NCBI GenBank assembly: GCA_052033955.1
Contig: JBPOJD010000003.1
Coordinates: 23,128-87,127 of the forward strand
Direction: 5' to 3'
Source: Candidatus Hydrogenedentota bacterium
GTDB taxonomy: Bacteria; Hydrogenedentota; Hydrogenedentia; Hydrogenedentales; SLHB01
DNA length: 64,000 bases
The first letter of the stretch is position 1. The number at the start of each line of letters is the position of its first letter. The notes beneath the pieces are model-generated. The model searched no databases and was not told the origin of the DNA. It saw nothing but the letters and a program-made list of their open reading frames with translations. Below, piece after piece: positions 12,903-57,741 of the stretch. The position numbers and the translations under genes are program-made.

Positions 12903-12950
12903 GGTCCGTTCTCAAGACCCTTCCTTGCGGCGCATCGTGCGGGGCCACGT

Positions 12951-29479: not shown

Positions 29480-30625
29480 TTACCGCGGCGCGGGAGGCCG
29501 CGGGATCGGGCGGGGCCGGTGGCGCCAGTTCTGGAAGGTGCGCCAGGTGTGCCGGGCCTGCATGGCCGCGCCGATGATGACCCGGCTCGCGGGGCTCTCG
29601 CAGATCTGGTACTCGCCGATGTACTGGATGTCCCGGCCGCCGACGCCCTTCTTGAAGGTGTAGCCGCCCGGGTACGCCACGGGATCGATGCCGCCCATGT
29701 CCAGGTGCCGGAAGCCCATTTCCTTGGCGGCGCAGATCTGATCCCAGACGAGCCGGTTCGCGGCTTGGCACGTGAGCGCGCGGTCGCTCGTGGCGAACAG
29801 GATTCCCATGGCCCGGCCCCCGACGGCCGAAAGCGTGGATGCGGCCACCGGCTCGCCCTCGGAGTACAGCACGGTGATGCGCATCTTGTGGTGATCCGGC
29901 AGGCGCCGCTGGATCTCGCGGAATTCGTTTACGTCCACGTAGCGCACGAAGCCCTTGCGCGCATGCATTACCTCGTAGAGGTCCGCCAAGTGCCCGTAGA
30001 GGTCGTCGCCGACGCCGTGGACGAGGGTGATGTCGCGGTCGTAGCTTTTCCGGAGCCGGTTTCGCCAGTCAGAGGCCAGCCCCTTGTGCAGGCCGTCGAT
30101 GGACGGGGTGAGGTCCAGCAGGAAGGTGCGGTAGGGCTTCGTCGCGGCCACAAGGCGGAAGCCTTCCTGTTCCAGGATGTCCCGGGCGGGACACGGCTCT
30201 TCGGCGACCTCGCGGGGGATGATCCGGAGCTGGAGCCCGCGCCGGGCGACAAATTCGTCCCGGAGCGCGCGCAGAACGGCCCGCAGGGCCTCGGGGTCGG
30301 CCTCGTGGCCGCGGGGCCGCCACATCGGGCCGAGGTACAGATACGCGACGCCCGCCCTGAGGACCGGGAGGACGAGCGCGCGCACCTGCGCGGCCGCCAC
30401 GACGCGTCCGCCACGGCGTATGACGACATGGTGCATGCGATGCGCGCCCCACCGGACCTCCTCATAGGCCCAAGTCTGGTAGATGGTCGCATCCTCGAAC
30501 TCGTCGACGATGGCGGTCCACTCGGAGGCGGTGACCTGGTCGATTTCCGCGGTGAACGCGTTGTCTGCGGCCACGCGGCGCCACGCCGCCGGGGGGGCGG
30601 CTTCACGGACGGGTGAAATGGACAC
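29480..30625 (-). CDS. FemAB-family (Acetyltransf_6/GNAT-fold) protein, EPS-locus associated
   Basis: Start is a GTG with an AAGGAG Shine-Dalgarno 6 nt upstream. Similar in length and sequence to the exosortase-system-associated FemAB family (...IYQTWAYEEV...LHKGLASDWRNRLRKSY...GGIDPVAYPGGYTFKKG...). Confidence 0.7.
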   Translation of the reverse strand: MSISPVREAAPPAAWRRVAADNAFTAEIDQVTASEWTAIVDEFEDATIYQTWAYEEVRWGAHRMHHVVIRRGGRVVAAAQVRALVLPVLRAGVAYLYLGPMWRPRGHEADPEALRAVLRALRDEFVARRGLQLRIIPREVAEEPCPARDILEQEGFRLVAATKPYRTFLLDLTPSIDGLHKGLASDWRNRLRKSYDRDITLVHGVGDDLYGHLADLYEVMHARKGFVRYVDVNEFREIQRRLPDHHKMRITVLYSEGEPVAASTLSAVGGRAMGILFATSDRALTCQAANRLVWDQICAAKEMGFRHLDMGGIDPVAYPGGYTFKKGVGGRDIQYIGEYQICESPASRVIIGAAMQARHTWRTFQNWRHRPRPIPRPPAPR

Positions 30626-31496
30626 TGGCCTCTCCTTTCGCCTCGATGCGTTCCGGGGAACGGCGCATCAGCCGGCGCATCAGCTGTCCCTTGATGGCCG
30701 ACATGACAGGCATCCAGCAATACGCGCCCTTGACCTTGAGCCGGAACTCCCACAGGAGGTCCGAGGGGTCCACGCGGACGCGTCCAATGACGAACTCGTC
30801 CTGGGTCATGCGGGCCGGCCGGGCATTGCCGGTGAACACCCGCCGGTAACCGGCGTTCCGCACCATGTCGACCAGGGATGCATTGTGGCGGCCGTAGGGG
30901 AACACAAAGGTGTCGATCTCGCGCCCCAGCGCCTGCTCGAGGCATTCCCGGGAGGCCTCGAGCTCCAGACGGGCCTCCTGTTCGTTGAGCAGACACATGT
31001 TCCGGTGGGAGACGCCGTGGGACCCGATGGCGACCAGGCCGGCGGGCAGTTGCCGCAGGTCGCTCGCCGAGGCCACGGTCTCCGAGGTGTCGCGCGAGTG
31101 GAGCGCCTGGCGCCAGTTGGCCGGTCCGCCCATCTTGCCCGAGGGCACAAAGACCGAACAGGGAAGGCCTCGCGAGACAATTTCGGGTATGGCCCCGGTG
31201 ACGGCGCAGGTGAACGCGTCGTCGAAGGTGAGAGCGGCGTAGCGGCTTCCAGGCGCGAGTCCGTGCCGTTCACCGGCCGGGACCACGCGGGCCATGCGCT
31301 GCAACTCGTCCAACTGGCGGCGGAACGCGGGCATCTCATCGGCGCGGACCGAGTGATAACACACCACCATGCAGGTGGGAGGCGTTTCCTGTCCGGCGGC
31401 GCGCCGGATCCGCTGCCAGGCCTGATGCAGGATCCAGTACACCTGGCTGACGGCGAGTGTGAGGATGCGGTGGAGGATGGCGGTTACCGTGTGCAT
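30603..31496 (-). CDS. Polysaccharide deacetylase (NodB homology domain, CE4)
   Basis: ALTFDDAFTCAVTGAIPEIVSRGLPCSVFVPSG (the TFDD motif) ... IGSHGVSHRNM (His motif) ... FVFPYGRHNASLV. The ATG at 31496 is chosen; the upstream 150 codons of the ORF are Arg-rich, overlap the next gene and are rejected. Confidence 0.75.
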   Translation of the reverse strand: MHTVTAILHRILTLAVSQVYWILHQAWQRIRRAAGQETPPTCMVVCYHSVRADEMPAFRRQLDELQRMARVVPAGERHGLAPGSRYAALTFDDAFTCAVTGAIPEIVSRGLPCSVFVPSGKMGGPANWRQALHSRDTSETVASASDLRQLPAGLVAIGSHGVSHRNMCLLNEQEARLELEASRECLEQALGREIDTFVFPYGRHNASLVDMVRNAGYRRVFTGNARPARMTQDEFVIGRVRVDPSDLLWEFRLKVKGAYCWMPVMSAIKGQLMRRLMRRSPERIEAKGEASVHFTRP

Positions 31497-31954: not shown

Positions 31955-31994
31955 GTCGTGTCGCCTGGCCGCCGCTGGCGCCGGTTCTGCCCTG

Positions 31995-32390
31995 TCAGTG
32001 ATTGACCACTGACGGCCGGTCCTGGTTCTGATTGCCGCCTTCGTCGAGGCGTCTGCGTGCAACATCCAGCAGCGTGGAGATGTCCCGGCCGTCGCTCGGG
32101 TACGAGGCCGCGCCGAAACGCACCGACACCGCCCCGCCATAGGCGTGCTGGAGCCGGTGTATTGCCGCGCGCGCCCCGTCGCTGTCGGTCTCGCCCATGA
32201 GCACCGTTACGTGGGGCTTCGACTCGATCACCGCGTCGCTCACGCGCAGGAACCCCGAGAAGAGCTGGCGGAACTTGTCGCGGGGTTTCCCGACACTGCA
32301 CACGAGCACCGTGAAAAACCGCTGATAGCGTTCGGAGTTGCGCAGCTCGTGTTCGGCGAGCAACTCGAAAAGCTCAGGCTTGTTCTCCAC
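31995..32390 (-). CDS. Second small protein with a degenerate GGDEF-like domain
   Basis: FTVLVCSVGKPRDKFRQLFSGFLRVSDAVIESKPHVTVLMGETDSDGARAAIHRLQ...PSDGRDISTLLDVARRRLDEG follows the GGDEF-domain pattern but lacks the GGDEF/GGEEF residues. The GTG at 32390 avoids overlap with the upstream GT4; the alternative ATG at 32519 would overlap it by about 57 nt. Confidence 0.4.
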   Translation of the reverse strand: MENKPELFELLAEHELRNSERYQRFFTVLVCSVGKPRDKFRQLFSGFLRVSDAVIESKPHVTVLMGETDSDGARAAIHRLQHAYGGAVSVRFGAASYPSDGRDISTLLDVARRRLDEGGNQNQDRPSVVNH

Positions 32391-32461
32391 TCGTGAGACC
32401 CTTGTCGTTCCGGGTGCGCGGCGCCGGTGCGCGGGGTGTCCCGGGCGGCGCCGCGGCGCCG

Positions 32462-33637
32462 CTATGCCGCCAGAAGCCGTTCTACCAGATTCGTGTACAC
32501 CCTCTTGTGTTCGTTCCATCTGTATTTCGCTCCAAATCCCATCCAGGCCGCCTGGCCGAGTTCCAAACGCTTGTCCGGGTGAGCGTAGAGATCCTCCACG
32601 GCCCCGGCGAACGACGTGGGGTCGTCTGCGTCGAAGAACTGAACCATGGCGGCATCGAAATAGCGCATGATGGTCTGTGTCCTGGGTACCACACAGGGAA
32701 TCCCCATCTGCACGTACTCGAGCAGCTTGGTGGGAAGCATCAATTCGGTCGCGCTCGAGATGCGCATCGGGATGACGCCGACATCGACGTCCGCCAGGCG
32801 ATACGGAATCTCTTCGACGGGCACGAACCCGTCGCTGAACGCGACCCGGGACGCAACGCCGAGGTCCGCGGCCCGCCGCGCCAGCTCCTCGCGGGCTTCC
32901 CCGTCCCCGATGATGCGCAGCTCGATGTCCGGAATGCGTTCGCACAGCACCGGCATGGCCTCGACGGCGATGTCCAGGCCAAGACGGTGCGCGAGCGTGC
33001 CGTGATAGGCCAGGACAAAGGGCGCGCCCGGACGCCGGGTTCGCGGTTCGCGCGGCGGCGCGAAGATCCGCTCGTCCGGAAGATTGAACAATACCGAGAT
33101 CTTGTTGCGCGGGATGCCGCGTTGGGACAGCACGTCCTTGAGGCGCTCCTCGACGGTGAGCACCTGTGTGGCAAAGCGCCCGGCCATCCACTCTTGGGAC
33201 GCAAGCAGCCGGATCACCCAGTGGCGCGCGCCGACATGAAACTTCTCCATGTAAAGCTCGGGCATCGGGTCATGGACGTCGTGGATAACGGGAACACCCA
33301 GGGCGCGGGGAAGCCACGCGGCGAGGACGAGGAAATCGGGCATGTTGCTGACGTGAATCAGGCGGTACCGGAGCGGGTGGGCCGTCATGTGCGCGCAGAT
33401 CTGAAGGAAGAAGAGGAGATAGTCCGCCAGATAGGCCGCGACCGAATCCGGTTTGTGCGACCGCGCCCGGGTCCGGCGCACGTCCACCCCCATGATCGTC
33501 TCGCGCCGGGGTTGGCCCGGCTGGCCGCGGGCGATGAAGACCACGCGGTGGCCTTCCTCGACCAGCGCCTCGGCCTCGCGCCGGACGCGGGGATCGCGGC
33601 TGTAGTTCGTGTATGCGGCCATGAGCACGGTTGCCAT
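32462..33637 (-). CDS. Glycosyltransferase family 4
   Basis: MATVLMAAYTNYSRDPRVRREAEALVEEGHRVVFI ... C-terminal GT4 signature MLPTKLLEYVQMGIPCVVPRTQTI (EX7E). ATG at 33637. Confidence 0.8.
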   Translation of the reverse strand: MATVLMAAYTNYSRDPRVRREAEALVEEGHRVVFIARGQPGQPRRETIMGVDVRRTRARSHKPDSVAAYLADYLLFFLQICAHMTAHPLRYRLIHVSNMPDFLVLAAWLPRALGVPVIHDVHDPMPELYMEKFHVGARHWVIRLLASQEWMAGRFATQVLTVEERLKDVLSQRGIPRNKISVLFNLPDERIFAPPREPRTRRPGAPFVLAYHGTLAHRLGLDIAVEAMPVLCERIPDIELRIIGDGEAREELARRAADLGVASRVAFSDGFVPVEEIPYRLADVDVGVIPMRISSATELMLPTKLLEYVQMGIPCVVPRTQTIMRYFDAAMVQFFDADDPTSFAGAVEDLYAHPDKRLELGQAAWMGFGAKYRWNEHKRVYTNLVERLLAA

Positions 33638-33641
33638 TGCC

Positions 33642-35012
33642 TTACCCGTCCAGGTCGCGCGGCGCGACCGAGGCGTGCGCGTCGCATCCCCCCGCCATCG
33701 CGGCGGACCAGTCCTTGGGGATGCCGAGCGTCCTGCGGCCGGTGCCCAAGTACAAGAGGCCCGCGCGTGCCGCAGCGAGGGGGTCCCAGAAGTCCCTTCC
33801 ATCAACGACTACGCTGATCCCACCGGCCGCCCACGCAGCGAAGTCCGGCGAGGCAAATTCCTCGTGCGCGGTGTTCAGAAACACGACGTCCGCGCGGTCC
33901 CGGTCCACGTCCGCCGGACGGAACCCCGCGCAGAGAATCTCGTGACTGCTGTAATGCGGATCCTGGAGCGTGACGATGGCGCCGTGCCGGATCAGTTCAT
34001 CGCGAAGCGCGTAGGCGCTGCTGAAGATGTCGACCTTGACGCCGGGGCGGAAGGCGAGTCCGAGGATATGCGCCCGTTTGTTCGCGAGCGGCTGCCACGC
34101 CTGGGCCACACGCGCCACGTGCCGCGCAGGCTGGGCGTCGTTGACCGCCCGCGCGGTCTCCGCGAGCCGCTGTCCGACCCCGAGGCGCCGCGCGGCCCGG
34201 GTCAGAAAGTAGGGGTACACCGGAGTGCAGTGACCGCCGACGCCGATTCCCGGCGCGAGCAGATGGGCCTCGCCGCTGGTGTTGGCGGCGCGCCGGACTA
34301 CCTCGAAATCCACGCCAACGGCCTCGGCGAACTCGGCCAGTTCGTTGGCGAGCGCGATGCTGACGTCGCGGTAGAGCATGTCGGCAAGCTTCGCCATCTC
34401 AGCGGCCTCGAGGGTCCGCACGTCGTGCACGGGCGCGCCCAGATACAGACTGTAGAAGGCGACGGCCTTGGCGCAGGAGGCCTGATCATAGCCCCCGACG
34501 ACCTTGGGCGTCTTCCGCAGGCGTTCCAGCACGAGGTTGGCCTTGACCCGTTCGGGGCTGAATGCCACGTGAAAATCGCGTCCGGCCTTGAGGCCACTGT
34601 GGTCTTCAAGCACCGGGACCAGTTCGTGACGGGTGCCGCCGACCGATACCGTCGTTTCGAAAATGACGAGGGCGCCCGGCTGGAGCCCCTCGCCGACCCG
34701 TGCCGCCGCGTCCTTGAGAATGGCGTAGTCGATGTCGCGCTCATTCGTGAGGTGGGCCGGGACGATGACAATGATGACGTCCGCATCCCGCGCGGCCTGC
34801 GTCGTGTCGAGGGTCGCCCGGAGCCGGCCTTCCTGGTGGACTTCATCGAGGAGGGCGGCGAGGCCGGGCTCCTCGTACGGGCACAAGCCCTCGTTGATCT
34901 GGCGGACGAGGGCGGGGTTGATGTCGCAGACCGTGGCTGCGGCGCCGTTTCCAGCGAGCACACACGCCAGCGGCAACCCCATGCGGCCGGCGCCCACGAC
35001 CATCGCGTTCAT
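33642..35012 (-). CDS. Nucleotide-sugar 6-dehydrogenase (WbpA/WecC-like UDP-N-acetylhexosamine dehydrogenase)
   Basis: MNAMVVGAGRMGLPLACVLA (Rossmann GxGxxG) ... GGHCTPVYPYFL (catalytic Cys region of the UDPG/MGDP dehydrogenase family). Its ATG overlaps the upstream aminotransferase stop (ATGA). Confidence 0.75.
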   Translation of the reverse strand: MNAMVVGAGRMGLPLACVLAGNGAAATVCDINPALVRQINEGLCPYEEPGLAALLDEVHQEGRLRATLDTTQAARDADVIIVIVPAHLTNERDIDYAILKDAAARVGEGLQPGALVIFETTVSVGGTRHELVPVLEDHSGLKAGRDFHVAFSPERVKANLVLERLRKTPKVVGGYDQASCAKAVAFYSLYLGAPVHDVRTLEAAEMAKLADMLYRDVSIALANELAEFAEAVGVDFEVVRRAANTSGEAHLLAPGIGVGGHCTPVYPYFLTRAARRLGVGQRLAETARAVNDAQPARHVARVAQAWQPLANKRAHILGLAFRPGVKVDIFSSAYALRDELIRHGAIVTLQDPHYSSHEILCAGFRPADVDRDRADVVFLNTAHEEFASPDFAAWAAGGISVVVDGRDFWDPLAAARAGLLYLGTGRRTLGIPKDWSAAMAGGCDAHASVAPRDLDG

Positions 35013-36139
35013 GCGCAGCGCTCCTTCAGGGTTGATACCGCCGCCCGAAGCCCGTCGCAGACGAAGCCGATCTGTTCATCGGTGATCTCGGCGAACATCG
35101 GCAGCGACAGCAGGTGCAGGGCCTGCTGTTCGGCCACGGGGAAATCGCCTTCGCCATGGCCGCGCGCGGCGTAGGCCTTCTGCAGGTGCAGCGGGATGGG
35201 GTAATGCAGGCCGGTGGCGATGCCCTGCCCGGCGAGCGCGGCCTGGACCTCGTCCCGGTTGGGCACCTGCACCACGAAGAGATGCCAGACGGGCCGGCAG
35301 TGCGCCGGCACCGTCGGCAAGACCACCCCATCCACATGCGCCAGCAGCTCCATGTAGCGCCGGGCGGCCCTGCGCCGGGCCTCCGTCCAATCCGGCAGGC
35401 AGCGGAGCTTCACGCGCAGTGCCGCCGCCTGAAGGGCGTCACAGCGGCCATTGTGTCCTTCGATGTCGTGATAGTACTTCTTGACCTGGCCGTGGTCGCG
35501 CAGCATGCGCACCCGGTCGGCGAGGTCGGTGTCGTTGGTGACGACGGCCCCGGCCTCCCCGCAGGCGCCGAGGTTCTTGCCCGGATAGAACGAGAATCCG
35601 GCCGCGACGCCCATCGTTCCGGTGCGACGGCCTTTGTACTCGGCGAGATGGGCCTGTGCGGCATCTTCGACGACCCACAGCCCATGCTCGGCGGCTACGG
35701 CGCCGATGGCGTCCATGTCGGCGGGCTGTCCATAGAGGTGGACCGGAACGATGCCCTTGGTGCGGGGCGTGATGACTTGTTCGATCTGCTGCACGTCCAG
35801 GTTGTACGTGTCCGGGCGGACATCGATGAAGACGGGTGTTCCGCCGGCCAGGCTCACGGCCTCGCTCGTGGCGATGAAGGTGTTGGCCGGTACGATGACC
35901 TCGTCGCCGGGGCGGAGTCCCAGGGCCTTGAAGATGAAGAGGAGCGCGTCCGTCCCATTGCTGACCGTCACGCAGTGACGCGCGTCGCATGCCGCGGCGA
36001 ACTCTTCTTCGAAGGCAGCAACGTGCGCCCCGCCGATGAACCCCGCCGTGTCAAGAATGTCGCTCCACAGGGTCAAGATCTCTTGCTTGACGAGCCGGTG
36101 CTGCGCTCTCAGATCCAGGAAGGGGACGTTCGTCTGCAT
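35009..36139 (-). CDS. DegT/DnrJ/EryC1/StrS-family PLP-dependent sugar aminotransferase (WbpE/PglE-like)
   Basis: MQTNVPFLDLRAQHRLVKQEILTLWSDILDTAGFIGGAHVAAFEEEFAAACDARHCVTVSNGTDAL ... SFYPGKNLGACGEAGAVVTND is the classic DegT family signature. Confidence 0.85.
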   Translation of the reverse strand: MQTNVPFLDLRAQHRLVKQEILTLWSDILDTAGFIGGAHVAAFEEEFAAACDARHCVTVSNGTDALLFIFKALGLRPGDEVIVPANTFIATSEAVSLAGGTPVFIDVRPDTYNLDVQQIEQVITPRTKGIVPVHLYGQPADMDAIGAVAAEHGLWVVEDAAQAHLAEYKGRRTGTMGVAAGFSFYPGKNLGACGEAGAVVTNDTDLADRVRMLRDHGQVKKYYHDIEGHNGRCDALQAAALRVKLRCLPDWTEARRRAARRYMELLAHVDGVVLPTVPAHCRPVWHLFVVQVPNRDEVQAALAGQGIATGLHYPIPLHLQKAYAARGHGEGDFPVAEQQALHLLSLPMFAEITDEQIGFVCDGLRAAVSTLKERCA

Positions 36140-36620: not shown

Positions 36621-36858
36621 GCGTTGTCCTTTCGAATGGATGGGGCTCCGAACCGCCGGCGCCCATGCCGCGATGCGAGCAACGCATGTGCCAACGCGTC
36701 GCCGCCCCGCAAGACTGCCGCGGATATGCGGAAATCTGCGGGCGCGCCGGTGATCAACGGGAACACCAGCGCTGTGATGTGGCGATTGCATGCGCGATCT
36801 GGCGCGCAACCCTTGGCTGGATTCGGCATGTCCGCAGTGGGCCGCGGCATGGGTGAGG

Positions 36859-39155: not shown

Positions 39156-39174
39156 GGCGTGTCCCCGTGTACTG

Positions 39175-41807: not shown

Positions 41808-41812
41808 TACAG

Positions 41813-42892: not shown

Positions 42893-42958
42893 CCCGGCGC
42901 TGGGGGGCGGGTCAGACGCGCGCTGTGTTCCCCCTGTGCGTGCGTGCGTACCGTTGCC

Positions 42959-43648: not shown

Positions 43649-45126
43649 CATGGCTGGCGGGACTCCCATTCCGGCACGCCGGGTTCTTCCGCTGCGAGCA
43701 AACTGTCCGCTGCGTTGTCCGGCATGGACGCCGGGAAGACGATCTCCTGTCCGACGTGGATCACATCCACGTTCTGTATTCCGGGGTTGTGACGCTGCAC
43801 GAATTCGATCATCGTGCCGTTGCAGTACCCATAGATCTCCGTGATCAGGCGTGTGAGGCAGTCTCCTTGGCCCGCGACGCGGCGCAGCTCCGCCGGAGCC
43901 TGAGCCGGAGCCGGAGCGGGCGCGGAGGCGAGGGTAGCCTGTTGGACCGGGGCCTCGACCGGCGGCAGGTCGACGCGCTCCACCGCCGGGGCAATCGCTG
44001 GCGGCCCGGGCGAAACCGGTGCGGCCGCGGGCTCGGGCGCCGTCGTAGCGGCTTGGGTGTCGCCAACATGGGGAACAGAAAGGGGAATCGGGCTGGGGAC
44101 CGCGGCCAGGTGAGTGCTGTCCGGAGCGATCTCGGCGTCCGCCGCATAGGTGCGGGGCAGCACATTTCCGTCATTCGACGACTCGGCGGTCGTGACGAGG
44201 GGGCTTCCAGCCGCATCCAGGCCGGACCGGATCCCCAGGCCCGATAGCAGACCAACAACCAGCACCACGAGGGCGAGGGCCGCGACACTCCGCGTGCGCC
44301 GCGCCGCCGGAACCGGAGCGGCCCCGGAGAGTTCGCGGGCGACCCGTGCGGCGATGCGCGCCGGCACCGGGCGGCGCTGGCTTCCGTACCCGGCGATGAG
44401 GGCGTTGTCGCAGAGGATGTTCAGGGTGCGCGGGATGCCCTTGGCGCGAAGGGTGATCGCGGACAGGGCCCGCAGCGAGAAGACGGGTCCCAGCGCGCCC
44501 GCCTTATCGAGGCGAAAGCGGATGTACTCGGTGCTCTCCCTCGGGGACAGCGGCTGGATCGCCGCCCGCACGGCGATGCGCTGTTTGAGCTGGCGGAGGG
44601 CGTAGAGGTCCAGCTTGTGGTCCAGCTCCGGCTGTCCCACAAGCACGATTTGTAGGAGTTTCTCCTGTTCGGTTTCGAGGTTTGACAGGAGCCGGAGCTT
44701 TTCCAGCGTCTCGACGGGCATGTTCTGTGCCTCGTCGATAAGCAGGACCACATTGCGTCCCTGGGTGAACTCTGCGATGAGCTGCATCTGAAGCCGTTCG
44801 AGCGGACTCGCCAGGCCGTCATCACCGGCAGGGGCCCCCAGTTCGCGAAGCAGCAGGGCCAGGAGGGCGTCGTAGGTGATATCCGGGTCGAAGAGGTAGA
44901 TCGGATGGACGCCGCTGCCTTGGGCCATGCTCAGATAGGCCCGCAGTACCGTCGTCTTGCCCGTGCCGACCTCGCCGGTCACGACGACGAATCCCTTGCG
45001 GGCGTTCACGCCGTATACGACCGAGGCGAAGGCCTCGCGGTGGCTCGGGCTCAGGTAGAGGAACTTCGGATCCGGTGTGATCCGGAACGCCTCCTCGGAG
45101 AGTTGATAGAAGTCCAGGTACATCAC
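43648..45126 (-). CDS. ExeA/GspA-like AAA ATPase (EPS/exosortase-locus secretion ATPase family)
   Basis: MMYLDFYQLSEEAFRITPDPKFLYLSPSHREAFASVVYGVNARKGFVVVTGEVGTGKTTVLRAYL (Walker A) ... LLIDEAQNMPVETLEKLRLLSN (Walker B). Ala/Pro-rich linker, then a C-terminal probable peptidoglycan-binding module. Confidence 0.75.
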   Translation of the reverse strand: MMYLDFYQLSEEAFRITPDPKFLYLSPSHREAFASVVYGVNARKGFVVVTGEVGTGKTTVLRAYLSMAQGSGVHPIYLFDPDITYDALLALLLRELGAPAGDDGLASPLERLQMQLIAEFTQGRNVVLLIDEAQNMPVETLEKLRLLSNLETEQEKLLQIVLVGQPELDHKLDLYALRQLKQRIAVRAAIQPLSPRESTEYIRFRLDKAGALGPVFSLRALSAITLRAKGIPRTLNILCDNALIAGYGSQRRPVPARIAARVARELSGAAPVPAARRTRSVAALALVVLVVGLLSGLGIRSGLDAAGSPLVTTAESSNDGNVLPRTYAADAEIAPDSTHLAAVPSPIPLSVPHVGDTQAATTAPEPAAAPVSPGPPAIAPAVERVDLPPVEAPVQQATLASAPAPAPAQAPAELRRVAGQGDCLTRLITEIYGYCNGTMIEFVQRHNPGIQNVDVIHVGQEIVFPASMPDNAADSLLAAEEPGVPEWESRQP

Positions 45127-46664
45127 GTGTAACTCTTCTCCCGCAGGACGGCGAGCACCGGAATCCCGAGCGATTTCTCGAGTTGCTCGCGCGACCGGAC
45201 GGAGCTGTCGAAGTGGTCACGCACAAAGGCCAGGGTAACCGCCAGAAAGAGGGCGGCGATCATGCCGAGGACGATATCGACCGGCTTGTTGGGGCGAACC
45301 GGTGCGGGAAACACCGTGGCCGCCTGCACTACGCTGATGTTCGAGACGCGATCCATATCCATCGCGGTCGAGATGCGCGCCCGCTGAAGGCTGTCGTGAT
45401 AGTCGCGGTAGGCCTTTTCGGCCAGTTGCGCTTCGCGGGCCAGGCCGTCCAGCTCGACTTCGCGCGCCACCAGGGTGGCCAGCATATCCTCGTGCCGCGC
45501 AAGCTGGGCCAGCAACACCTCGTGCCGGGCCTTCTCCGCCTGGGCACGGGTCACCTCGCTGTCGAGTTCGAACTGGAGAGCCTCGCGCCGTTCGTCCAGC
45601 CCGGTCGTGACTTCGGTCAACGTGGCGTTCTCGGCCGCGAGCGAGGCCTCGAGCTGTGCTATCTGTTCACGGACCTGTACCAAGGGGCGATGGCTGTCGG
45701 GGTAGCGGGCCGAAAGGTCGGTTTCCTGGAGGCGCAGATCAGACAGGCGCTCCTTGAGCGAGTCGGCCGCGACGTTGGTCTTGCCGGTTGTGCGCACGAT
45801 TTCGCGGGTCGTGGGGCGGCCCGCCAACGTGTTGCGGAGGGCCGCGGCGCGGGCCTCGTGGGCGGAAGCGGCGGCCGCGGCCAGGTCCGCTTCGGACCGC
45901 GCCGAACTGATGCGCTCGATGAGCGTCGATTTCTCCTGGGCCAGGTCCGCGATGCGGTGCTGAGTGCGGAAGGCCTCGAGCGCGCGTTGCCGGTCGGTGA
46001 GTTCGGCGCCCAGAGCGCCTACCTGCGCCTCGAAGAAGTCCGGCGTGGCCTGGGTCGCATAGACCTCGATATGACGTTTCAGATAGCCCGTCACGATGTA
46101 GTCGAGCGCCTGCCGGGCGATCTCGGGATCGTGCGCCTCATAGGTGGCGCTGATAATGTTGTCGCGCTTGCCGACCTCGGCGGAGAAGCTCCGCATGACC
46201 CGCCGCACGGCCTTGTTCCGCGTCGTGACCGGCGGCAGGATGTTCAGCGCGGCGAGGGTGCCGGCGACCGCACTCTTTGCGTTTCGGACCGCAGCGCCCA
46301 CAGCGCCGGGTTCTTCGGACGACGGGCGACGCCCCAGGATCGTCTCGGGGCCAAGGGAATCGACGAGTCCTTCGGCGAGGTCACGGCTCTGGAGAATGGC
46401 GAGCTCGGAATGAACCTCATTGTCGCGGTTCACGTAGGGGTTGACCGTGGGTCCTGACACGGACGGGTCCATCGCCAGGTTCTCGCGCCCGAGCCGGATG
46501 AGCATATGGGCCTCGGCCTGGTATACCGGCGCGCGCAGACAGGTGACGACGACGACCAGCGCGGTGACGGTCGCGAAGACCACCAGGATCATCCGGCGCC
46601 GGCGAAACAGCACGGCGAGGATGTCCCGGGGAGAAGTGGTTACCGTCCCATTATTTCCAGCCAT
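45123..46664 (-). CDS. Polysaccharide chain-length determinant protein (Wzc N-terminal-type / GumC-EpsF-like, no kinase domain)
   Basis: N-terminal transmembrane helix (ILVVFATVTALVVVVTCL), Wzz domain, long coiled-coil, C-terminal transmembrane helix (IVLGMIAALFLAVTLAFV). The ATG overlaps the stop of the upstream ATPase gene. Confidence 0.75.
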   Translation of the reverse strand: MAGNNGTVTTSPRDILAVLFRRRRMILVVFATVTALVVVVTCLRAPVYQAEAHMLIRLGRENLAMDPSVSGPTVNPYVNRDNEVHSELAILQSRDLAEGLVDSLGPETILGRRPSSEEPGAVGAAVRNAKSAVAGTLAALNILPPVTTRNKAVRRVMRSFSAEVGKRDNIISATYEAHDPEIARQALDYIVTGYLKRHIEVYATQATPDFFEAQVGALGAELTDRQRALEAFRTQHRIADLAQEKSTLIERISSARSEADLAAAAASAHEARAAALRNTLAGRPTTREIVRTTGKTNVAADSLKERLSDLRLQETDLSARYPDSHRPLVQVREQIAQLEASLAAENATLTEVTTGLDERREALQFELDSEVTRAQAEKARHEVLLAQLARHEDMLATLVAREVELDGLAREAQLAEKAYRDYHDSLQRARISTAMDMDRVSNISVVQAATVFPAPVRPNKPVDIVLGMIAALFLAVTLAFVRDHFDSSVRSREQLEKSLGIPVLAVLREKSYT

Positions 46665-46677
46665 GGCAAACGTCCTC

Positions 46678-47487
46678 TTAAGGCACGGTTATGGGCCACT
46701 GTGTGTCAATGGTTACGTTGCGGGACTCGGACCGCGACTCGTTGGCGACCTCGCTGAAGGTGTAGTGAAGATTGCGCGGGACGATGCGGTTGATGTACTG
46801 CTCGACCCACTGGTTGACCCGGTCGATGCCGGTGCGCGGCACGTACACAATGTCATAGGGTTCGAGAAAGAATGCCTCGCTCTGCGGCGATCGCATTGGC
46901 TTGGCGAGATCGATGGCCATCGCGTATTGCTGGTCGCCCTCGCGCCGCAGGACCACGACGTTGGACATCTGGGCGCTTTCCTTGAGATGACCGCCAGCCT
47001 GCATGATCGCCTGGAGCGGGGTCATGCGGCCTGTCAGCGCGATGACGCCCGGCGCCTGCACCTCGCCGCCGACGTAGACGCGGTGGCTCTCCAGGCCACT
47101 CACGACCACGTTGATCTCCGGATCCTTGAGCTTGTCCCGGTAGGCTTCCAGAAGCTGGTCGCGGAACTGCGCGGGCGTGCGTCCCTCGGCATGTTGCTCG
47201 CCCACCAGCGGCAGCGACAGCTTGCCGTCCGGGCGGATGGCCTGATTCTGATTGAGTTCTGGCCAGTGGATGAACTGGATCTCGAGCACGTCGCCGGCGC
47301 GCAGCAGCAGCGCGTCCTGGGTCGCCGGACCGTCCGTGTGGGCACTCTCGATGGTGCGCGGCAACGACGTGCTGGCGCATCCACCGGCGAGTGCCGCCAC
47401 GGCCATCAGAAGACCCAGGACCGCAGTGCACACCGGGGCGTACCGCCGCCCTGAGCAGCCCAAGGATGAAGCAGTAATTGGATTCAT
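46678..47487 (-). CDS. Polysaccharide export outer-membrane lipoprotein (Wza-like; Poly_export + SLBB)
   Basis: Lipobox LAGGC after the signal peptide. DVLEIQFIHWPELNQNQAIRPDGKLSLPLVGEQHAEGRTPAQFRDQLLEAYRDKLKDPEINVVVSG is the Poly_export domain. The ATG at 47487 has a GGAGGAA Shine-Dalgarno; the GTG at 47505 is the alternative. Confidence 0.8.
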   Translation of the reverse strand: MNPITASSLGCSGRRYAPVCTAVLGLLMAVAALAGGCASTSLPRTIESAHTDGPATQDALLLRAGDVLEIQFIHWPELNQNQAIRPDGKLSLPLVGEQHAEGRTPAQFRDQLLEAYRDKLKDPEINVVVSGLESHRVYVGGEVQAPGVIALTGRMTPLQAIMQAGGHLKESAQMSNVVVLRREGDQQYAMAIDLAKPMRSPQSEAFFLEPYDIVYVPRTGIDRVNQWVEQYINRIVPRNLHYTFSEVANESRSESRNVTIDTQWPITVP

Positions 47488-47586
47488 GTCCAGCGATTCC
47501 TCCACGCTTGCCGTCTGCCGGTTGCGTTGCCGGGTGGGGGGGCTTCCGATTCACCGTCCCGCCCGCGTCGACGCGCGCCGGGCTGT

Positions 47587-47608
47587 GCAAGAGCAAGCGG
47601 TGTGCCGG
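47587..47608 (-). promoter_or_regulatory. Candidate sigma-54 (-24/-12) promoter for the wza-led EPS operon
   Basis: The minus-strand sequence cCGGCACaccgcTTGCtcttgca has GG at -24 and GC at -12 with the canonical 5-nt spacing between GGCAC and TTGC. It lies about 95-115 nt upstream of the wza start codon and immediately downstream of a sigma-54-dependent activator gene. Confidence 0.45.
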
Positions 47609-47908
47609 TTTCCGAAGATAGGGGAACGCCCGGGGGGGCGCGTTCCGGGTATGCGGGGACAGCAGGATGATCGCTCCGGGCGTTGCGCACCGATTCAATG
47701 AAGCCCGTATGGTTGGGCGGACGCGGGGGCCGGTTCAGGAGCAGCGCTTCGGAAGACCCAGCGGTTTCATGCGCAATGTGTCGGGCGGCAGGTGTCGAAA
47801 ACGATTAAGGGAATGCCCGATGGCGTGTGAAGCGAACAGAGCGGGGGCGGGGGAACAGGGCCGGGCCAGCCATCGCGCGAGCGCGGCTGCGGCGGGGCGA
47901 GATGCGCG

Positions 47909-49300
47909 CTACGCGCAACGGAAGGGCACGGTCTCGTCAAGGTGATGTTTGGCGATGCGGCGCCGGAGGGCGCTGTAGCTGATGCCGAGGTTCGAGGCGG
48001 CCTGGCGCTGGTTCCACCGGCACTCGACGAGGGCGGCGAGAATGGTGCTGCGTTCGATGGCCTCGAGCTTGTCGTCGTGGGGGCCGGTCTCCGGAGCGGC
48101 CACGGCGGGAGCAACGGTTTGCAGGACCGGCTCGATGTCGCCCGTGAGGGCGTAGCGTGCCACGAGTGCTTCCAGCTCGCGGACATTCCCCGGCCATTGG
48201 TAGCGGATGAAGTGCGGGACGACCTCGGGCGGCAGCCCGGTGTGCGTGAACCCGCGCTTGGCCGCGCAGGTCTGTAGAAAATGCTCACACAGCAGCGGGA
48301 TGTCGTCGACGCGGTCGCGCAGCGCGGGCAGGGTGATGCTGAACTGGCGCAAGCGGTAGAACAGGTCCGGCCGGAAGGCGCCGGTCTCGATCATGTGCTC
48401 GAGGGGCGAGCTGGTCGCGGCGATGATGCGGCCGTCAAACAGCGTGGTTCCCTTTCCTCCGACCCGCACGAACTGCTTGTGCTCGATCACCTCAAGGAGC
48501 TTCGACTGCATCGAGGGGGACATGAGCCCGATCTCGTCGAGAAAGATGGTGCCGCCCTCGGCCAGCTCGAAGCGGCCCGGCTTCTGCGACACCGCGCCGG
48601 TGAAGGCGCCCTTCTCGTAGCCGAACAACTCGGACTCGAGCAAGGTGTCGGGGATGGTGGGGCAGTTGATCTTCACGAAGTTGCCCGTTGCGGCCCGGGG
48701 AGACAGCGCGTGGATCAGGCGGGCGACCACGTCCTTGCCGGTGCCGCTCTCGCCCCGGATCAGGACCGTCATGTCCGACGGGGCGACCTGGGCGACGAGG
48801 TCCAGCACCCGCTTGACGCACGGTGTGGCCCCGACGAAGGCAGGCAACACCTGATCCCAGTCAGTCGAGGGGGCCTGTACGGGCACGGTTCTCCTCTGGT
48901 GTCCGTTCAGATGCACAGCGGCCGTCTGACACTCGATGGCGCGGGTCGTGGACGCCGGGAGCCGGCCGAGGTCGTCCGGGCGAATGAGAAATTCGTAGAC
49001 GGCAGCGCCCAGGCGCTCGCGGAGAGTGGTGATGCCGGGTTCGGGTGCAGTGACAATCAGTTTCGCGCGGCACGGCGGACAGGTCAGTCGTTCAACCAGT
49101 TGGATGCTGGACTCGTCGATGTGCTCAATGTCGATCACCGCCACGTCAAAGCCGTCGCGGGATACGAGGGCCATAACGTCATACTCGGACTCGCCAGGGG
49201 TGATTGCGCATCCGGTCTCGTGCAGGCACCACACGAGGGCCTTGCGCCACCCCTCGGTTTCAGACCAGACCAGCACGTTCCCCTTCCGCCTGGTGTTCAT
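47909..49300 (-). CDS. Sigma-54-dependent response regulator (NtrC family; resembles PEP-CTERM-locus regulator PrsR)
   Basis: N-terminal receiver-like domain (NVLVWSETEGWRKAL...DVAVIDIEH). Central AAA+ sigma-54 activator domain (GESGTGKDVVARLIH...ESELFGYEKGAFTGA with the GAFTGA motif...GGTIFLDEIG). C-terminal Fis-type HTH (AASNLGISYSALRRRIAKH). ATG at 49300. Confidence 0.85.
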   Translation of the reverse strand: MNTRRKGNVLVWSETEGWRKALVWCLHETGCAITPGESEYDVMALVSRDGFDVAVIDIEHIDESSIQLVERLTCPPCRAKLIVTAPEPGITTLRERLGAAVYEFLIRPDDLGRLPASTTRAIECQTAAVHLNGHQRRTVPVQAPSTDWDQVLPAFVGATPCVKRVLDLVAQVAPSDMTVLIRGESGTGKDVVARLIHALSPRAATGNFVKINCPTIPDTLLESELFGYEKGAFTGAVSQKPGRFELAEGGTIFLDEIGLMSPSMQSKLLEVIEHKQFVRVGGKGTTLFDGRIIAATSSPLEHMIETGAFRPDLFYRLRQFSITLPALRDRVDDIPLLCEHFLQTCAAKRGFTHTGLPPEVVPHFIRYQWPGNVRELEALVARYALTGDIEPVLQTVAPAVAAPETGPHDDKLEAIERSTILAALVECRWNQRQAASNLGISYSALRRRIAKHHLDETVPFRCA

Positions 49301-55888: not shown

Positions 55889-55891
55889 ACG

Positions 55892-57724: not shown

Positions 57725-57741
57725 AGGAGACGACGTCCGCC

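What the first reader, a model, noticed from the sequence alone, without database searches (positions are those of the whole stretch)
29480..49300. A 20-kb minus-strand EPS locus with an exosortase/PEP-CTERM-type gene set, but no exosortase, EpsI or sensor kinase in the window
Its gene set matches EPS loci that accompany exosortase (XrtA/EpsH) systems. The set comprises a Wza-like OM exporter, a Wzc-N-type chain-length determinant, an ExeA-like AAA ATPase, a BY-kinase-like ATPase, a polyprenyl-P sugar transferase, a FemAB-family protein and a NodB-type deacetylase. A sigma-54-dependent response regulator with a -24/-12 promoter sits upstream. No multi-transmembrane exosortase gene, EpsI-type protein or PrsK-like histidine kinase can be identified anywhere in the 64 kb. 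Two nearby surface proteins carry C-terminal TM-plus-Arg tails (a separate finding). Either the sortase module is encoded elsewhere, or this is a variant of the system.
Basis: partly seen in the sequence, partly recalled or inferred. Interest (0 to 1): 0.7.

Follow-up and report, generated by a model that had tools for sequence, protein, structure and literature searches.

The report
Polysaccharide export locus without exosortase
This is a real 20-kb gene cluster for making and exporting a surface polysaccharide; its export core is a distant cousin of the cores found next to exosortase protein-sorting systems, but it belongs to a separate lineage that, in every relative examined, has no exosortase within about 10 kb.

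Summary
The genes are all present on the minus strand of 29480-49300. No exosortase, EpsI, PrsK/PrsT or any histidine kinase is encoded in the 64 kb. The locus is a complete Wzx/Wzy-dependent polysaccharide pathway with a 3-acetamido-sugar branch. Two sigma-54 promoter-like sites follow a sigma-54 activator.

The likeness to exosortase loci is real but distant. The PEP-CTERM-context models are the best NCBIfam hits for the ATPase, chain-length determinant and exporter. All score below their cut-offs, and at roughly half (exporter, chain-length determinant) to four-fifths (ATPase) of the scores of an exosortase-adjacent acidobacterial locus used as a calibrator.

The ATPase falls in a separate clade (Hydrogenedentota, Nitrospirota, Geobacteraceae, Syntrophobacter). 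Its members carry a transmembrane helix and a C-terminal LysM domain. Their "BY-kinase" partner has lost the Walker A lysine and the tyrosine cluster, and the beta-barrel gene of the sister clade is missing. None of 12 distinct loci holds an exosortase in the flanks available.

The two nearby C-terminal tails do not match PEP-CTERM. Whether an exosortase lies elsewhere in the genome could not be tested. Verdict: an ordinary kind of locus with a little-described export-core variant; modest interest.

The parts
47909..49300 (-). Sigma-54-dependent transcriptional activator: divergent receiver-like N-terminus, Sigma54_activat AAA+ domain and HTH_8. The real start is probably Met66 of the long ORF, at 49300.
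   Evidence: Pfam Sigma54_activat 211 bits and HTH_8, with no Response_reg hit. NCBIfam NifA 314 and NtrC 306 exceed PEP_resp_reg 277, whose cut-off is 502.6.
47593..47607 (-). Sigma-54 (-24/-12) promoter-like site CGGCACACCGCTTGC, about 90 nt upstream of the exporter gene.
   Evidence: One mismatch to TGGCAC-N5-TTGC. It lies in the 400-nt gap between the activator and the exporter, on the coding strand.
46678..47505 (-). [quoted passage not shown] It has a lipobox-like signal peptide, a Poly_export domain and one SLBB domain, and no Wza-type C-terminal helix domain was detected.
   Evidence: PF02563 63 bits, SLBB_2 47 bits. TIGR03027 90.3 bits against a cut-off of 180. Sequence.
45123..46664 (-). 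Polysaccharide co-polymerase (chain-length determinant). Two transmembrane helices, a long periplasmic coiled coil, no fused kinase, and a short cytoplasmic C-terminal tail.
   Evidence: Wzz and GNVR. TIGR03007 132.7 bits against a cut-off of 278.9. Transmembrane helices at 25-43 and 462-480.
43648..45123 (-). ExeA/GspA-like AAA+ ATPase of 491 aa. Cytoplasmic P-loop domain (1-270), one transmembrane helix (281-299), a Pro/Ala-rich linker, and a C-terminal LysM-type domain (about 415-465).
   Evidence: AAA_22 100 bits. TIGR03015 242 bits against a cut-off of 324.5. The family profile's C-terminus hits LysM domains of Kbp, SafA and Ecp6 in the PDB. The conserved C-terminal motif is in alignment A1. 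The 491-aa length matches the public record.
42986..43651 (-). Stand-alone BY-kinase homologue with a degenerate nucleotide site (probable pseudokinase). It has no Walker A GK[ST] and no C-terminal tyrosine cluster, and it carries a conserved YIPxFxYRRL end.
   Evidence: Alignment A2 with true kinases from exosortase-adjacent loci. The family profile hits CapB, VpsO, Etk and Wzc. TIGR01007 gives only 29.9 bits, and there is no Pfam hit.
41813..42970 (-). Initiating polyprenyl-phosphate sugar-phosphate transferase (Bac_transf), fused to a 170-aa N-terminal cytoplasmic domain.
   Evidence: PF02397 195 bits at residues 177-373. The N-terminal domain matches the separate 149-aa gene product of locus L001, E=2e-12.
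40626..41804 (-). Gfo/Idh/MocA oxidoreductase, a probable nucleotide-sugar 3-dehydrogenase.
   Evidence: GFO_IDH_MocA domains. The best NCBIfam hit is UDP-GlcNAc 3-dehydrogenase, 160 bits, below its cut-off.
39175..40629 (-). Wzx-type flippase (multi-transmembrane, Polysacc_synt-like).
   Evidence: PF01943 25.9 bits and HfsF 26.9 bits. At least 10 predicted transmembrane helices. It clusters with Polysacc_synt proteins of L007.
37749..39158 (-). Wzy-type polymerase (O-antigen ligase/polymerase family).
   Evidence: PF04932 Wzy_C 45.9 bits. 10-13 predicted transmembrane helices. Orthologues are present in related loci.
36859..37752 (-). GT2 glycosyltransferase.
   Evidence: PF00535 70 bits. The gene boundary was resolved by the GC3 frame plot.
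36679..36693 (-). A second sigma-54 promoter-like site, a perfect TGGCACATGCGTTGC, 59 nt upstream of the acetyltransferase ATG in a 240-nt gap.
   Evidence: This is the only zero-mismatch match in the window.
36051..36620 (-). Left-handed beta-helix N-acetyltransferase for a 3-amino sugar.
   Evidence: Hexapep 73 bits. The best solved relatives are a WxcM-like protein, WlbB (3mqg) and QdtC.
35009..36139 (-). DegT-family PLP aminotransferase, of the sugar C-3 aminotransferase type.
   Evidence: The best solved relatives are QdtB 348 bits, the transaminase 2oga 346 bits (DesV, identified from memory), and WbpE 286 bits.
33642..35012 (-). NDP-sugar 6-dehydrogenase, which makes a uronic acid.
   Evidence: TIGR03026 309 bits, above its cut-off of 189.8.
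32462..33637 (-). GT4 glycosyltransferase.
   Evidence: Glyco_trans_4_4, Glyco_trans_1_4 and Glycos_transf_1. TIGR04063 78.8 bits against a cut-off of 442.
31995..32390 (-). Small ORF (131 aa) with a strong coding signal, faintly GGDEF-like. No homologue was found in any related locus.
   Evidence: GC3 of 0.88-0.93. GGDEF_2 E=0.035 only. No hits in the fetched loci.
30603..31496 (-). NodB-type polysaccharide deacetylase.
   Evidence: PF01522 58.6 bits. No TIGR03006 hit. The L007 orthologue is 310 aa.
29480..30625 (-). FemAB/GNAT-fold acyl- or aminoacyl-transferase-like protein, adjacent to the deacetylase as in L007.
   Evidence: Acetyltransf_6 37 bits and FemAB 26.8 bits. TIGR03019 26.5 bits against a cut-off of 260. 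The L007 orthologue scores 372 bits.

Best explanation
The locus is a self-contained Wzx/Wzy-dependent pathway for an acidic, N-acetylated amino-sugar polysaccharide (EPS or capsule). It does not need an exosortase.

Shown by domain content:
- A Bac_transf enzyme starts the repeat unit on a polyprenyl phosphate.
- GT2 and GT4 enzymes extend it, Wzx flips it, and Wzy polymerises it.
- A co-polymerase (PCP) and a short lipoprotein exporter (OPX) take the polymer out.

Inferred from the closest solved or named relatives:
- The dehydrogenase, C-3 aminotransferase, N-acetyltransferase and 6-dehydrogenase make a UDP-2,3-diacetamido-2,3-dideoxy-hexuronic acid. This parallels the WbpA/B/E/D and WlbA-D route.
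- The adjacent deacetylase and FemAB-like protein remodel an N-acetyl group on the polymer. This is weakly supported.

Inferred for the export core, which is a lineage-specific variant:
- A kinase-dead BY-kinase homologue docks on the cytoplasmic tail of the PCP as a scaffold, as the kinase-dead domain of PslE does.
- A membrane-tethered AAA+ ATPase reaches the peptidoglycan through a periplasmic LysM domain. By analogy with ExeA/GspA, it helps assemble or hold the PCP-OPX conduit through the wall.

Inferred for regulation: the adjacent sigma-54 activator drives two transcription units from the -24/-12 sites at 47607 and 36693. Its receiver-like domain is divergent and no cognate kinase lies nearby.

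Evolutionary placement: the core shares ancestry with the XrtA-associated EPS core but forms a sister lineage in which no exosortase was found nearby.
For: - All pathway parts are present, with family hits above Pfam thresholds.
- Sugar branch: the aminotransferase is closest to QdtB, the transaminase 2oga (DesV, from memory) and WbpE. The acetyltransferase is closest to a WxcM-like protein, WlbB and QdtC.
- ATPase architecture: AAA domain, one transmembrane helix and a LysM domain.
- Pseudokinase: the Walker A lysine and the tyrosine cluster are lost across the clade but kept in exosortase-adjacent loci. The BY-kinase fold family is confirmed.
- The four-gene order OPX-PCP-ATPase-kinase homologue is conserved in Hydrogenedentota, Geobacteraceae and Syntrophobacter; the Nitrospirota loci (L009, L016) are held only through the ATPase. 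L007 is syntenic for nearly the whole locus.
- The AAA-domain tree separates this clade from the exosortase-linked short ATPases.
- No exosortase occurs in any clade locus or in the window.
- Two promoter-like sites fall in the two large intergenic gaps on the coding strand. About 0.03 would be expected there, from 5.86 expected in the whole window.
- Precedents: an AAA+ ATPase (PrmE) is required for a Wzy-dependent EPS in a cluster without an exosortase (PMC11340318). PslE is kinase-dead and PslD lacks an obvious C-terminal helix (PMC13434223). Disrupting EpsH did not affect methanolan synthesis (PMC1569441).
Against: - The rest of the genome could not be scanned, so an exosortase and PEP-CTERM substrates may exist elsewhere.
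- Flanks of related loci reach only 10 kb, and some are shorter. The contrast of 0/12 against 5/about 17 is not statistically strong.
- The roles of the ATPase, the pseudokinase and the FemAB/deacetylase pair rest on analogy, not on tests.
- No outer-membrane beta-barrel partner for the short OPX was found, so the last export step is unexplained.
- The sigma-54 site upstream of the exporter is not conserved in relatives. L007 has a sigma-70-like promoter there.
- The NJ tree is rough.
Confidence: 0.6

Rival explanations
1. It is the EPS half of a true exosortase/PEP-CTERM-type system. The exosortase, its substrates and a sensor kinase are encoded elsewhere in the genome.
For: - The best NCBIfam hits of the ATPase, PCP, exporter, GT4 and FemAB-like protein are XrtA/PEP-CTERM-context models.
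- The order activator-OPX-PCP-ATPase-kinase homologue matches exosortase-adjacent loci, which also carry a beta-barrel gene between OPX and PCP.
- A deacetylase/FemAB-like pair and a sigma-54 activator are present.
- Curated cut-offs are also missed by proteins of exosortase-adjacent loci.
- Nearby surface proteins carry a transmembrane helix plus an Arg-rich tail and choice-of-anchor Q domains.
Against: - Window scores are far below those of the calibrator L040: 242 against 304, 133 against 270, 90 against 160, no hit against 150, and 26 against 146 bits.
- The ATPase belongs to a separate clade with no exosortase in any held flank.
- The kinase homologue is degenerate.
- The tails give no PEP-CTERM hit even at E<=10. 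One is weakly MYXO-CTERM-like, 13.4 bits against a cut-off of 20.
- Haft et al. note that all these accessory families also occur in PEP-CTERM-negative genomes. Only EpsH is diagnostic.
Confidence: 0.25
2. It is an O-antigen or LPS-type cluster. The Wzy_C protein would act as a ligase or polymerase for a lipid-A-core-linked glycan, not for a secreted EPS or capsule.
For: - The Wzy_C family covers both O-antigen ligases and polymerases.
- 2,3-diacetamido uronic acids are classic O-antigen and LPS sugars (WbpA/B/D/E, WlbA-D; established knowledge). The closest solved relatives include WbpE and WlbB.
Against: - A dedicated OPX exporter and a PCP with a long coiled-coil periplasmic domain plus a kinase-type partner are hallmarks of capsule/EPS export, not of O-antigen ligation.
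- A second Wzx/Wzy set lies at 13-16 kb and could serve another glycan.
Confidence: 0.1

Closest known systems
XrtA/PEP-CTERM-associated EPS export core (Haft et al. 2006; NCBIfam TIGR03015, TIGR03007, TIGR03027, TIGR03018, TIGR03019, TIGR03006, TIGR02915)
   Same: The ATPase, PCP, OPX and kinase-type protein are homologous. The gene order activator-OPX-PCP-ATPase-kinase homologue matches exosortase-adjacent acidobacterial loci apart from their beta-barrel gene. A FemAB-like/deacetylase pair is present, and a sigma-54 activator lies upstream.
   Different: No exosortase, EpsI, PrsK or PrsT. All context models score below cut-off, at roughly half to four-fifths of the calibrator's scores. The ATPase carries an extra transmembrane helix and a LysM domain. 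The kinase homologue is catalytically degenerate. There is no beta-barrel gene between OPX and PCP. No PEP-CTERM tails were recognised.
Promonan (prm) cluster of Sphingomonas sp. LM7: PrmC beta-barrel, PrmD Wza, PrmE AAA+ ATPase, PrmF Wzz, PrmG CapB-type kinase (PMC11340318)
   Same: A Wzy-dependent EPS cluster in which an AAA+ ATPase sits beside the OPX, PCP and a split kinase-type protein. That ATPase is genetically required. No exosortase is listed in the cluster.
   Different: The gene order differs (Wza-ATPase-Wzz-kinase). A beta-barrel porin is present. PrmG is described as a bona fide BY-kinase. Sequence homology between PrmE and the window ATPase was not tested here.
Pseudomonas aeruginosa Psl export pair PslD-PslE (PMC13434223)
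   Same: The kinase-like domain lacks the catalytic Walker lysine and the tyrosine cluster. The OPX has no obvious C-terminal helix. The pathway is Wzx/Wzy-type and no phosphatase is present. PslE appears among the PDB hits of the kinase-homologue family.
   Different: In PslE the dead kinase domain is fused to the PCP, whereas here it is a separate polypeptide (the split arrangement of S. aureus CapA/CapB). Psl has no AAA+/LysM ATPase.
ExeA/GspA (and MshM) secretin-assembly ATPases of type II secretion and MSHA pili
   Same: AAA_22-type cytoplasmic ATPase, a single transmembrane helix and a periplasmic peptidoglycan-binding domain. JGI annotates the homologues as 'general secretion pathway protein A'.
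   Different: The wall-binding module is LysM rather than the PF01471-type domain of ExeA (from memory). The partner here is an OPX/PCP polysaccharide conduit, not a secretin. No ExeB/GspB-like gene was seen.
Class-3 OPX / Wzp porin systems of Myxococcus xanthus (PMC9603273, PMC12819527)
   Same: A short lipoprotein OPX without a detected Wza-type C-terminal helix, paired with a PCP.
   Different: No Wzp-like beta-barrel gene lies in the locus, in the window, or in related loci of the clade. The sister, exosortase-linked clade does have one between OPX and PCP.
WbpA/B/E/D (P. aeruginosa) and WlbA-D (Bordetella) route to UDP-2,3-diacetamido-2,3-dideoxy-glucuronic acid
   Same: The same four enzyme classes are present: a 6-dehydrogenase, a Gfo/Idh/MocA 3-dehydrogenase, a C-3 aminotransferase and an LbH N-acetyltransferase. 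WbpE and WlbB are among the best solved relatives.
   Different: No equivalog cut-off is reached. QdtB (and 2oga) score higher than WbpE. No WlbA/WbpB structure appears among the dehydrogenase hits. No 2-epimerase is present. The exact sugar is therefore not established.

Membership tests
Exosortase (XrtA)/PEP-CTERM system | An exosortase (EpsH family; TIGR02602, TIGR04178, PF09721) encoded in or near the EPS locus | tested here: not met
   No hit in any called gene. The local HMM was built from five exosortases found in fetched loci; the two checked against NCBIfam (L027, L040) pass TIGR02602 or TIGR03109. It finds nothing in the window's six-frame ORFs. The rest of the genome was not testable.
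Exosortase (XrtA)/PEP-CTERM system | Several proteins with a PEP-CTERM sorting domain (TIGR02595) | tested here: not met
   The C-terminal 69 aa of four surface proteins were scanned at E<=10. There was no PEP-CTERM hit. One tail is weakly MYXO-CTERM-like, 13.4 bits against a cut-off of 20. This covers the window only.
Exosortase (XrtA)/PEP-CTERM system | PrsK histidine kinase, PrsR regulator and PrsT TPR protein | tested here: not met
   There is no histidine kinase or PrsT in the window. The regulator scores 277 bits on TIGR02915 (cut-off 502.6), below its scores on NifA and NtrC.
Exosortase (XrtA)/PEP-CTERM system | Accessory proteins reach the curated cut-offs of the context models (TIGR03015, 03007, 03027, 03018, 03019, 03006) | tested here: not met
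   Window scores against cut-offs: 242/324.5, 132.7/278.9, 90.3/180, no hit, 26.5/260, no hit. Caveat: the exosortase-adjacent locus L040 also misses them, at 303.8, 269.6, 159.5, 150 and 146.
Wzx/Wzy-dependent polysaccharide pathway | Initiating phosphoglycosyl transferase, Wzx flippase, Wzy polymerase, PCP and OPX together | tested here: met
   PF02397 195 bits and Wzy_C 45.9 bits. Polysacc_synt scores 25.9 bits (just under Pfam's 28.2), supported by at least 10 predicted transmembrane helices and clustering with the L007 Wzx. Wzz+GNVR and Poly_export+SLBB are also present.
BY-kinase (bacterial tyrosine autokinase) | Walker A GxxGxGK[ST] with the catalytic lysine, and a C-terminal tyrosine cluster | tested here: not met
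   The window has SVPAQPNGTP in place of GEGKT, and the protein ends in YIPEFLYQRL. True kinases of loci L034, L040 and L043 keep both features. The fold family is confirmed by PDB hits to CapB, VpsO, Etk and Wzc.
ExeA/GspA-type ATPase | Cytoplasmic AAA_22 P-loop domain, a single transmembrane helix and a periplasmic peptidoglycan-binding domain | tested here: met
   AAA_22 100 bits, with Walker A GEVGTGKTT and DEAQ. Transmembrane helix at 281-299. The C-terminus matches LysM structures, E=9e-5. Topology and wall binding were not tested experimentally.
NtrC-family sigma-54 response regulator | A receiver domain with the phospho-acceptor pocket, a sigma-54 AAA+ domain and an HTH | tested here: inconclusive
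   Sigma54_activat and HTH_8 are clear, and Response_reg gives no Pfam hit. Full-length NtrC and PrsR models do align across the N-terminus. By eye the acceptor Asp is kept, but the acidic pair and the conserved Lys (FLIRP) are changed. That comparison uses an NtrC sequence recalled from memory.
Class-3 OPX with Wzp porin | A short OPX lacking the outer-membrane helix, plus an adjacent 18-stranded beta-barrel porin | tested here: inconclusive
   The OPX is short, with one SLBB domain and a lipobox-like signal. No beta-barrel candidate lies in the locus or in the clade's loci. The sister clade has one. No structure was modelled.

The most novel reading that the evidence does not exclude
The conserved cassette of short OPX, kinase-less PCP, LysM-tethered AAA+ ATPase and stand-alone dead BY-kinase could be a distinct, uncharacterised trans-envelope polysaccharide export module. 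It occurs in Hydrogenedentota, Nitrospirota and Desulfobacterota-type lineages. In this reading, ATP hydrolysis by a peptidoglycan-anchored AAA+ protein replaces the tyrosine-phosphorylation cycle. The module would also work without the beta-barrel porin and the exosortase that accompany its sister cassette.
Probability: 0.3. Interest if true: 0.55.

Novelty: new variant of a known kind. Interest (0 to 1): 0.3.

Why it matters
- It shows that the 'exosortase-context' gene set (ExeA-like ATPase, chain-length determinant, exporter, kinase homologue, FemAB, deacetylase) is not by itself diagnostic of an exosortase system. Annotators should not infer PEP-CTERM sorting from it.
- It defines a recognisable sub-lineage of the poorly understood EPS-associated AAA+ ATPases: a transmembrane helix and LysM domain, paired with a dead kinase. 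This gives a concrete, testable idea of what these ATPases do, namely wall-anchored assembly of the export conduit.
- It describes the surface-polysaccharide machinery of an uncultured phylum (Hydrogenedentota-like).
- None of this overturns current views.

Tried and rejected
- Exact look-ups of window proteins, to obtain the source contig and extend beyond the window, failed. Cluster membership shows that the source is a 141,110-bp NCBI contig.
- The genome-contig scan found no near-identical genome. The best ATPase match was 59% over its best segment (48% for the syntenic L007).
- Literature searches for exosortase or PEP-CTERM in Hydrogenedentes/Hydrogenedentota returned nothing.
- Curated cut-offs were considered as a clean membership test and rejected, because exosortase-adjacent loci also miss them.
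- Conservation of the sigma-54 site upstream of the exporter was tested across relatives. It is not conserved, and L007 has a sigma-70-like promoter there.
- The idea that the small ORF 31995-32390 is a paralogue of the transferase's N-terminal domain was tested and found unsupported.
- Rfam and tRNA scans of the window were empty.
- My first GC3 gene caller missed or mis-started several genes (GT2, acetyltransferase, Wzx and Wzy starts, the AsnB-like ORF). These were corrected with frame plots and HMM coordinates.

Full report
**1. Observation**

The window is about 65% G+C. Genes were therefore called from third-position GC and frame plots and checked with NCBIfam and Pfam. In transcription order the locus contains:
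- a sigma-54 activator (47909-49300);
- a short Poly_export/SLBB exporter (46678-47505);
- a Wzz/GNVR co-polymerase with two transmembrane helices and no kinase domain (45123-46664);
- an AAA_22 ATPase (43648-45123);
- a 222-227-aa BY-kinase homologue (42986-43651);
- a Bac_transf initiating transferase (41813-42970);
- a Gfo/Idh/MocA dehydrogenase (40626-41804);
- Wzx (39175-40629) and Wzy (37749-39158);
- a GT2 (36859-37752);
- a hexapeptide acetyltransferase (36051-36620);
- a DegT aminotransferase (35009-36139);
- an NDP-sugar dehydrogenase (33642-35012);
- a GT4 (32462-33637);
- a small unassigned ORF (31995-32390);
- a PF01522 deacetylase (30603-31496);
- a FemAB/GNAT-like protein (29480-30625).

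**2. Absences**

No called gene in the 64 kb hits any exosortase/archaeosortase, EpsI, PrsK or PrsT model, or any histidine-kinase domain. As an independent check I built an exosortase HMM from five exosortases found in fetched loci. The two checked against NCBIfam (L027, L040) pass TIGR02602, and L027 also passes XrtA TIGR03109. Run without filters against all six-frame ORFs of at least 100 aa, the HMM finds nothing in the window. The only multi-transmembrane proteins in the window are two Wzx, two Wzy_C and two ABC transporters. Two surface proteins do end in a transmembrane helix plus an Arg-rich tail. Scanned at E<=10, neither tail hits PEP-CTERM. One is weakly MYXO-CTERM-like, 13.4 bits against a cut-off of 20.

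**3.

All exosortase-context models score below their curated cut-offs.

| Component | Model | Window (bits) | Cut-off (bits) |
|---|---|---|---|
| ATPase | TIGR03015 | 242 | 324.5 |
| Chain-length determinant | TIGR03007 | 132.7 | 278.9 |
| Exporter | TIGR03027 | 90.3 | 180 |
| FemAB | TIGR03019 | 26.5 | 260 |
| Deacetylase | TIGR03006 | no hit | - |
| Kinase | TIGR03018 | no hit | 230.7 |
| Regulator | TIGR02915 | 277 | 502.6 |

The regulator scores higher on NifA (314) and NtrC (306).

I calibrated the test with a locus that does sit next to an exosortase (L040, Acidobacteriota). Its proteins also miss the cut-offs: 303.8, 269.6, 159.5, 150 (TIGR03018) and 146 (TIGR03019) bits. The cut-offs are therefore too strict to decide alone. 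What remains informative is that the window's proteins score lower than those of a real exosortase-adjacent locus: about four-fifths for the ATPase, about half for the exporter and chain-length determinant, and far less for FemAB and the kinase. Haft et al. already noted that these accessory families have close homologues in PEP-CTERM-negative genomes and that only EpsH is diagnostic. They also noted that disrupting EpsH did not affect methanolan synthesis (PMC1569441).

**4. Relatives**

The ATPase has thousands of homologues. The named ones closest to it are Candidatus Hydrogenedentes/Hydrogenedentota, as are the named relatives of the window's dihydrolipoyl dehydrogenase.

Neighbourhoods came from two look-ups and 80 genome loci. 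They were compared with the window proteins and with an NJ tree of the AAA domains. The window groups with loci L001-L016, from Hydrogenedentota, Nitrospirota, Geobacteraceae/Geomonas and Syntrophobacter. In this clade:
- the order exporter-PCP-ATPase-kinase homologue is invariant wherever the contig extends far enough;
- L007 (an 88-kb Hydrogenedentes contig) carries orthologues of almost every gene of the locus, including the deacetylase/FemAB-like pair placed directly after the kinase homologue;
- none of 12 distinct loci has an exosortase in the held flanks (8 of them have at least 14 kb), and their only multi-transmembrane proteins are one Wzx-like and one Wzy-like.

A sister clade, mostly Acidobacteriota, has short (about 316-aa) ATPases. 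Its order is activator-exporter-beta-barrel-PCP-ATPase-kinase. Five of about 17 such loci have an exosortase within 10 kb. The numbers are too small for a strong statistical claim, but they are consistent.

**5. What distinguishes the window's clade**

(a) The ATPase continues past the AAA domain into one transmembrane helix, a Pro/Ala-rich linker and a conserved C-terminal domain of about 50 aa. The family profile matches that domain to LysM domains of Kbp, SafA and Ecp6. The architecture therefore parallels ExeA/GspA: a cytoplasmic ATPase, a membrane anchor and a periplasmic wall-binding domain.

(b) The kinase homologue belongs to the BY-kinase fold family (CapB, VpsO, Etk and Wzc hits). 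It has lost the Walker A lysine: SVPAQPNGTP in the window and GEGTS in Geobacteraceae, against GEGKT in exosortase-adjacent loci. It has also lost the tyrosine cluster and ends in a conserved YIPxFxYRRL.

(c) The signal-peptide-bearing gene of about 480-550 aa, ending in an aromatic residue, that separates the exporter and PCP in the sister clade is absent. It is a probable outer-membrane beta-barrel.

(d) The 170-aa N-terminal domain of the window's initiating transferase is a separate 149-aa gene in L001.

**6. Sugar branch**

The aminotransferase's best solved relatives are QdtB, the transaminase 2oga (DesV, from memory) and WbpE, which I recall as C-3 aminotransferases. The acetyltransferase's best relatives are a WxcM-like protein, WlbB and QdtC, which I recall as 3-amino-sugar N-acetyltransferases. 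The Gfo/Idh/MocA enzyme has UDP-GlcNAc 3-dehydrogenase as its best NCBIfam hit, and a generic NDP-sugar 6-dehydrogenase is also present. Together these suggest a 2,3-diacetamido-2,3-dideoxy-hexuronic acid precursor. No equivalog cut-off is met and no WlbA/WbpB structure appears among the dehydrogenase hits, so the exact sugar is an inference.

**7. Regulation**

The regulator has clear Sigma54_activat and HTH_8 domains but no Pfam receiver hit.

Across the whole window, TGGCAC-N5-TTGC with at most one mismatch is no more frequent than chance (6 found, 5.86 expected). Two of the six matches, however, lie on the coding strand in the two large intergenic gaps of the locus:
- CGGCACACCGCTTGC at 47593-47607, about 90 nt before the exporter gene;
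- the only perfect match, at 36679-36693, 59 nt before the acetyltransferase ATG.

Those gaps make up about 0.5% of the positions scanned, so about 0.03 matches would be expected there. This supports two sigma-54-dependent transcription units.

The arrangement is not conserved. Most relatives lack such a site before the exporter. L007 has a TTGACA-17-TACTAT sigma-70-like promoter there, and a sigma-54-like site downstream of its own activator.

**8. Mechanism proposed**

Shown by domain content: the repeat unit is built on a lipid carrier, flipped by Wzx, polymerised by Wzy and exported through PCP and OPX.

Inferred:
- The dead kinase homologue docks on the cytoplasmic C-terminal tail of the PCP (…EQLEKSLGIPVLAVL…) as a scaffold. 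PslE offers a precedent: it lacks the catalytic lysine, the tyrosine cluster and kinase activity, yet forms the conduit with PslD, an exporter without an obvious C-terminal helix (PMC13434223).
- The LysM-tethered AAA+ ATPase couples the machine to the cell wall and helps assemble it, by analogy with ExeA. Genetic support that such an ATPase can be essential comes from the Sphingomonas promonan cluster. There the AAA+ ATPase PrmE, encoded beside Wza, Wzz and a CapB-type kinase in a cluster without an exosortase, is required for EPS production (PMC11340318). I did not test homology between PrmE and the window protein.

Unexplained: short (Class-3) exporters are reported to need a Wzp beta-barrel porin (PMC9603273 and PMC12819527), and none is encoded here.

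**9. Verdict**

The locus is evolutionarily related to exosortase-associated EPS cores, but it belongs to a separate sub-lineage with no exosortase in the flanks examined. Nothing in the window points to PEP-CTERM sorting. An exosortase elsewhere in the genome cannot be excluded, because the source contig (141 kb, NCBI) and its assembly could not be read. As a kind of system it is known (a Wzx/Wzy EPS locus). The export-core variant appears undescribed but is only moderately surprising.

Noticed in passing
window 4491-18061: A second polysaccharide cluster. It holds a UDP-glucose-type dehydrogenase, a Wzz-like protein, a heparinase II/III-like protein, two GT4s, an FkbM-like methyltransferase, Wzx, Wzy_C and a distant asparagine-synthase-like ORF (16118-18061, +) that my GC3 caller missed. 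It has no exporter of its own, so it may share the OPX of the studied locus.
   Followed up: partly
window 3859-64000 compared with L087: A relative with 88% identical Lpd (JGI contig, 41 kb) is syntenic only across the PDH E1-E2-E3 genes (window 1-3858). Downstream it carries housekeeping genes, and none of them match the window. Both polysaccharide clusters and the surface-protein genes therefore lie in a variable region. Base composition shows no obvious foreign signal.
   Followed up: partly
window 58957-61776 (-) and 49562-51250 (+): Surface proteins with choice-of-anchor Q and thrombospondin-type-3-like repeats. Each ends in a transmembrane helix plus an Arg-rich tail. The first tail (GCHAGSS…) is weakly MYXO-CTERM-like, 13.4 bits against a cut-off of 20. 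The second matches no known sorting domain.
   Followed up: partly
window 31995-32390 (-): A 131-aa ORF with very high GC3 (0.88-0.93), faintly GGDEF-like (E=0.035). It has no homologue in any of the 87 fetched loci. About 500 nt of apparently non-coding sequence separate it from the deacetylase gene.
   Followed up: partly
window 29069-29109 and 29338-29366: A perfect 17-bp-stem hairpin and a TTGACA-17-CATACT sigma-70-like promoter. Both lie in the 786-nt gap between the FemAB-like gene and the 1477-aa surface-protein gene. That gene therefore seems to have its own promoter and a long leader.
   Followed up: no
window 53741-58587 (+): Two MsbA/HlyB-type ABC exporter genes followed by an HlyD-like adaptor, lying between the two tailed surface-protein genes. 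This may be a type-I-like secretion or lipid-export set.
   Followed up: no
window 38001-40000: AT skew rises to +0.28. The interval coincides with the minus-strand Wzx and Wzy membrane-protein genes, whose codons I take to be T-rich on the coding strand. It is probably compositional, not a separate feature.
   Followed up: no
L007 21390-21405: In the syntenic Hydrogenedentes locus, a near-perfect sigma-54 site (TGGCACATAGATTGCT) lies just downstream of the orthologous activator gene, at the edge of the held sequence. That activator may control a gene outside the EPS locus.
   Followed up: no
L001/L004, about 2990-6900: In two Hydrogenedentes relatives the cassette is preceded by divergently oriented hybrid histidine kinases. 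One carries an [FeFe]-hydrogenase-like sensor domain (Fe_hyd_lg_C + HisKA). L004 also has a single-domain receiver gene. This is a different regulatory input from the window's sigma-54 activator.
   Followed up: no
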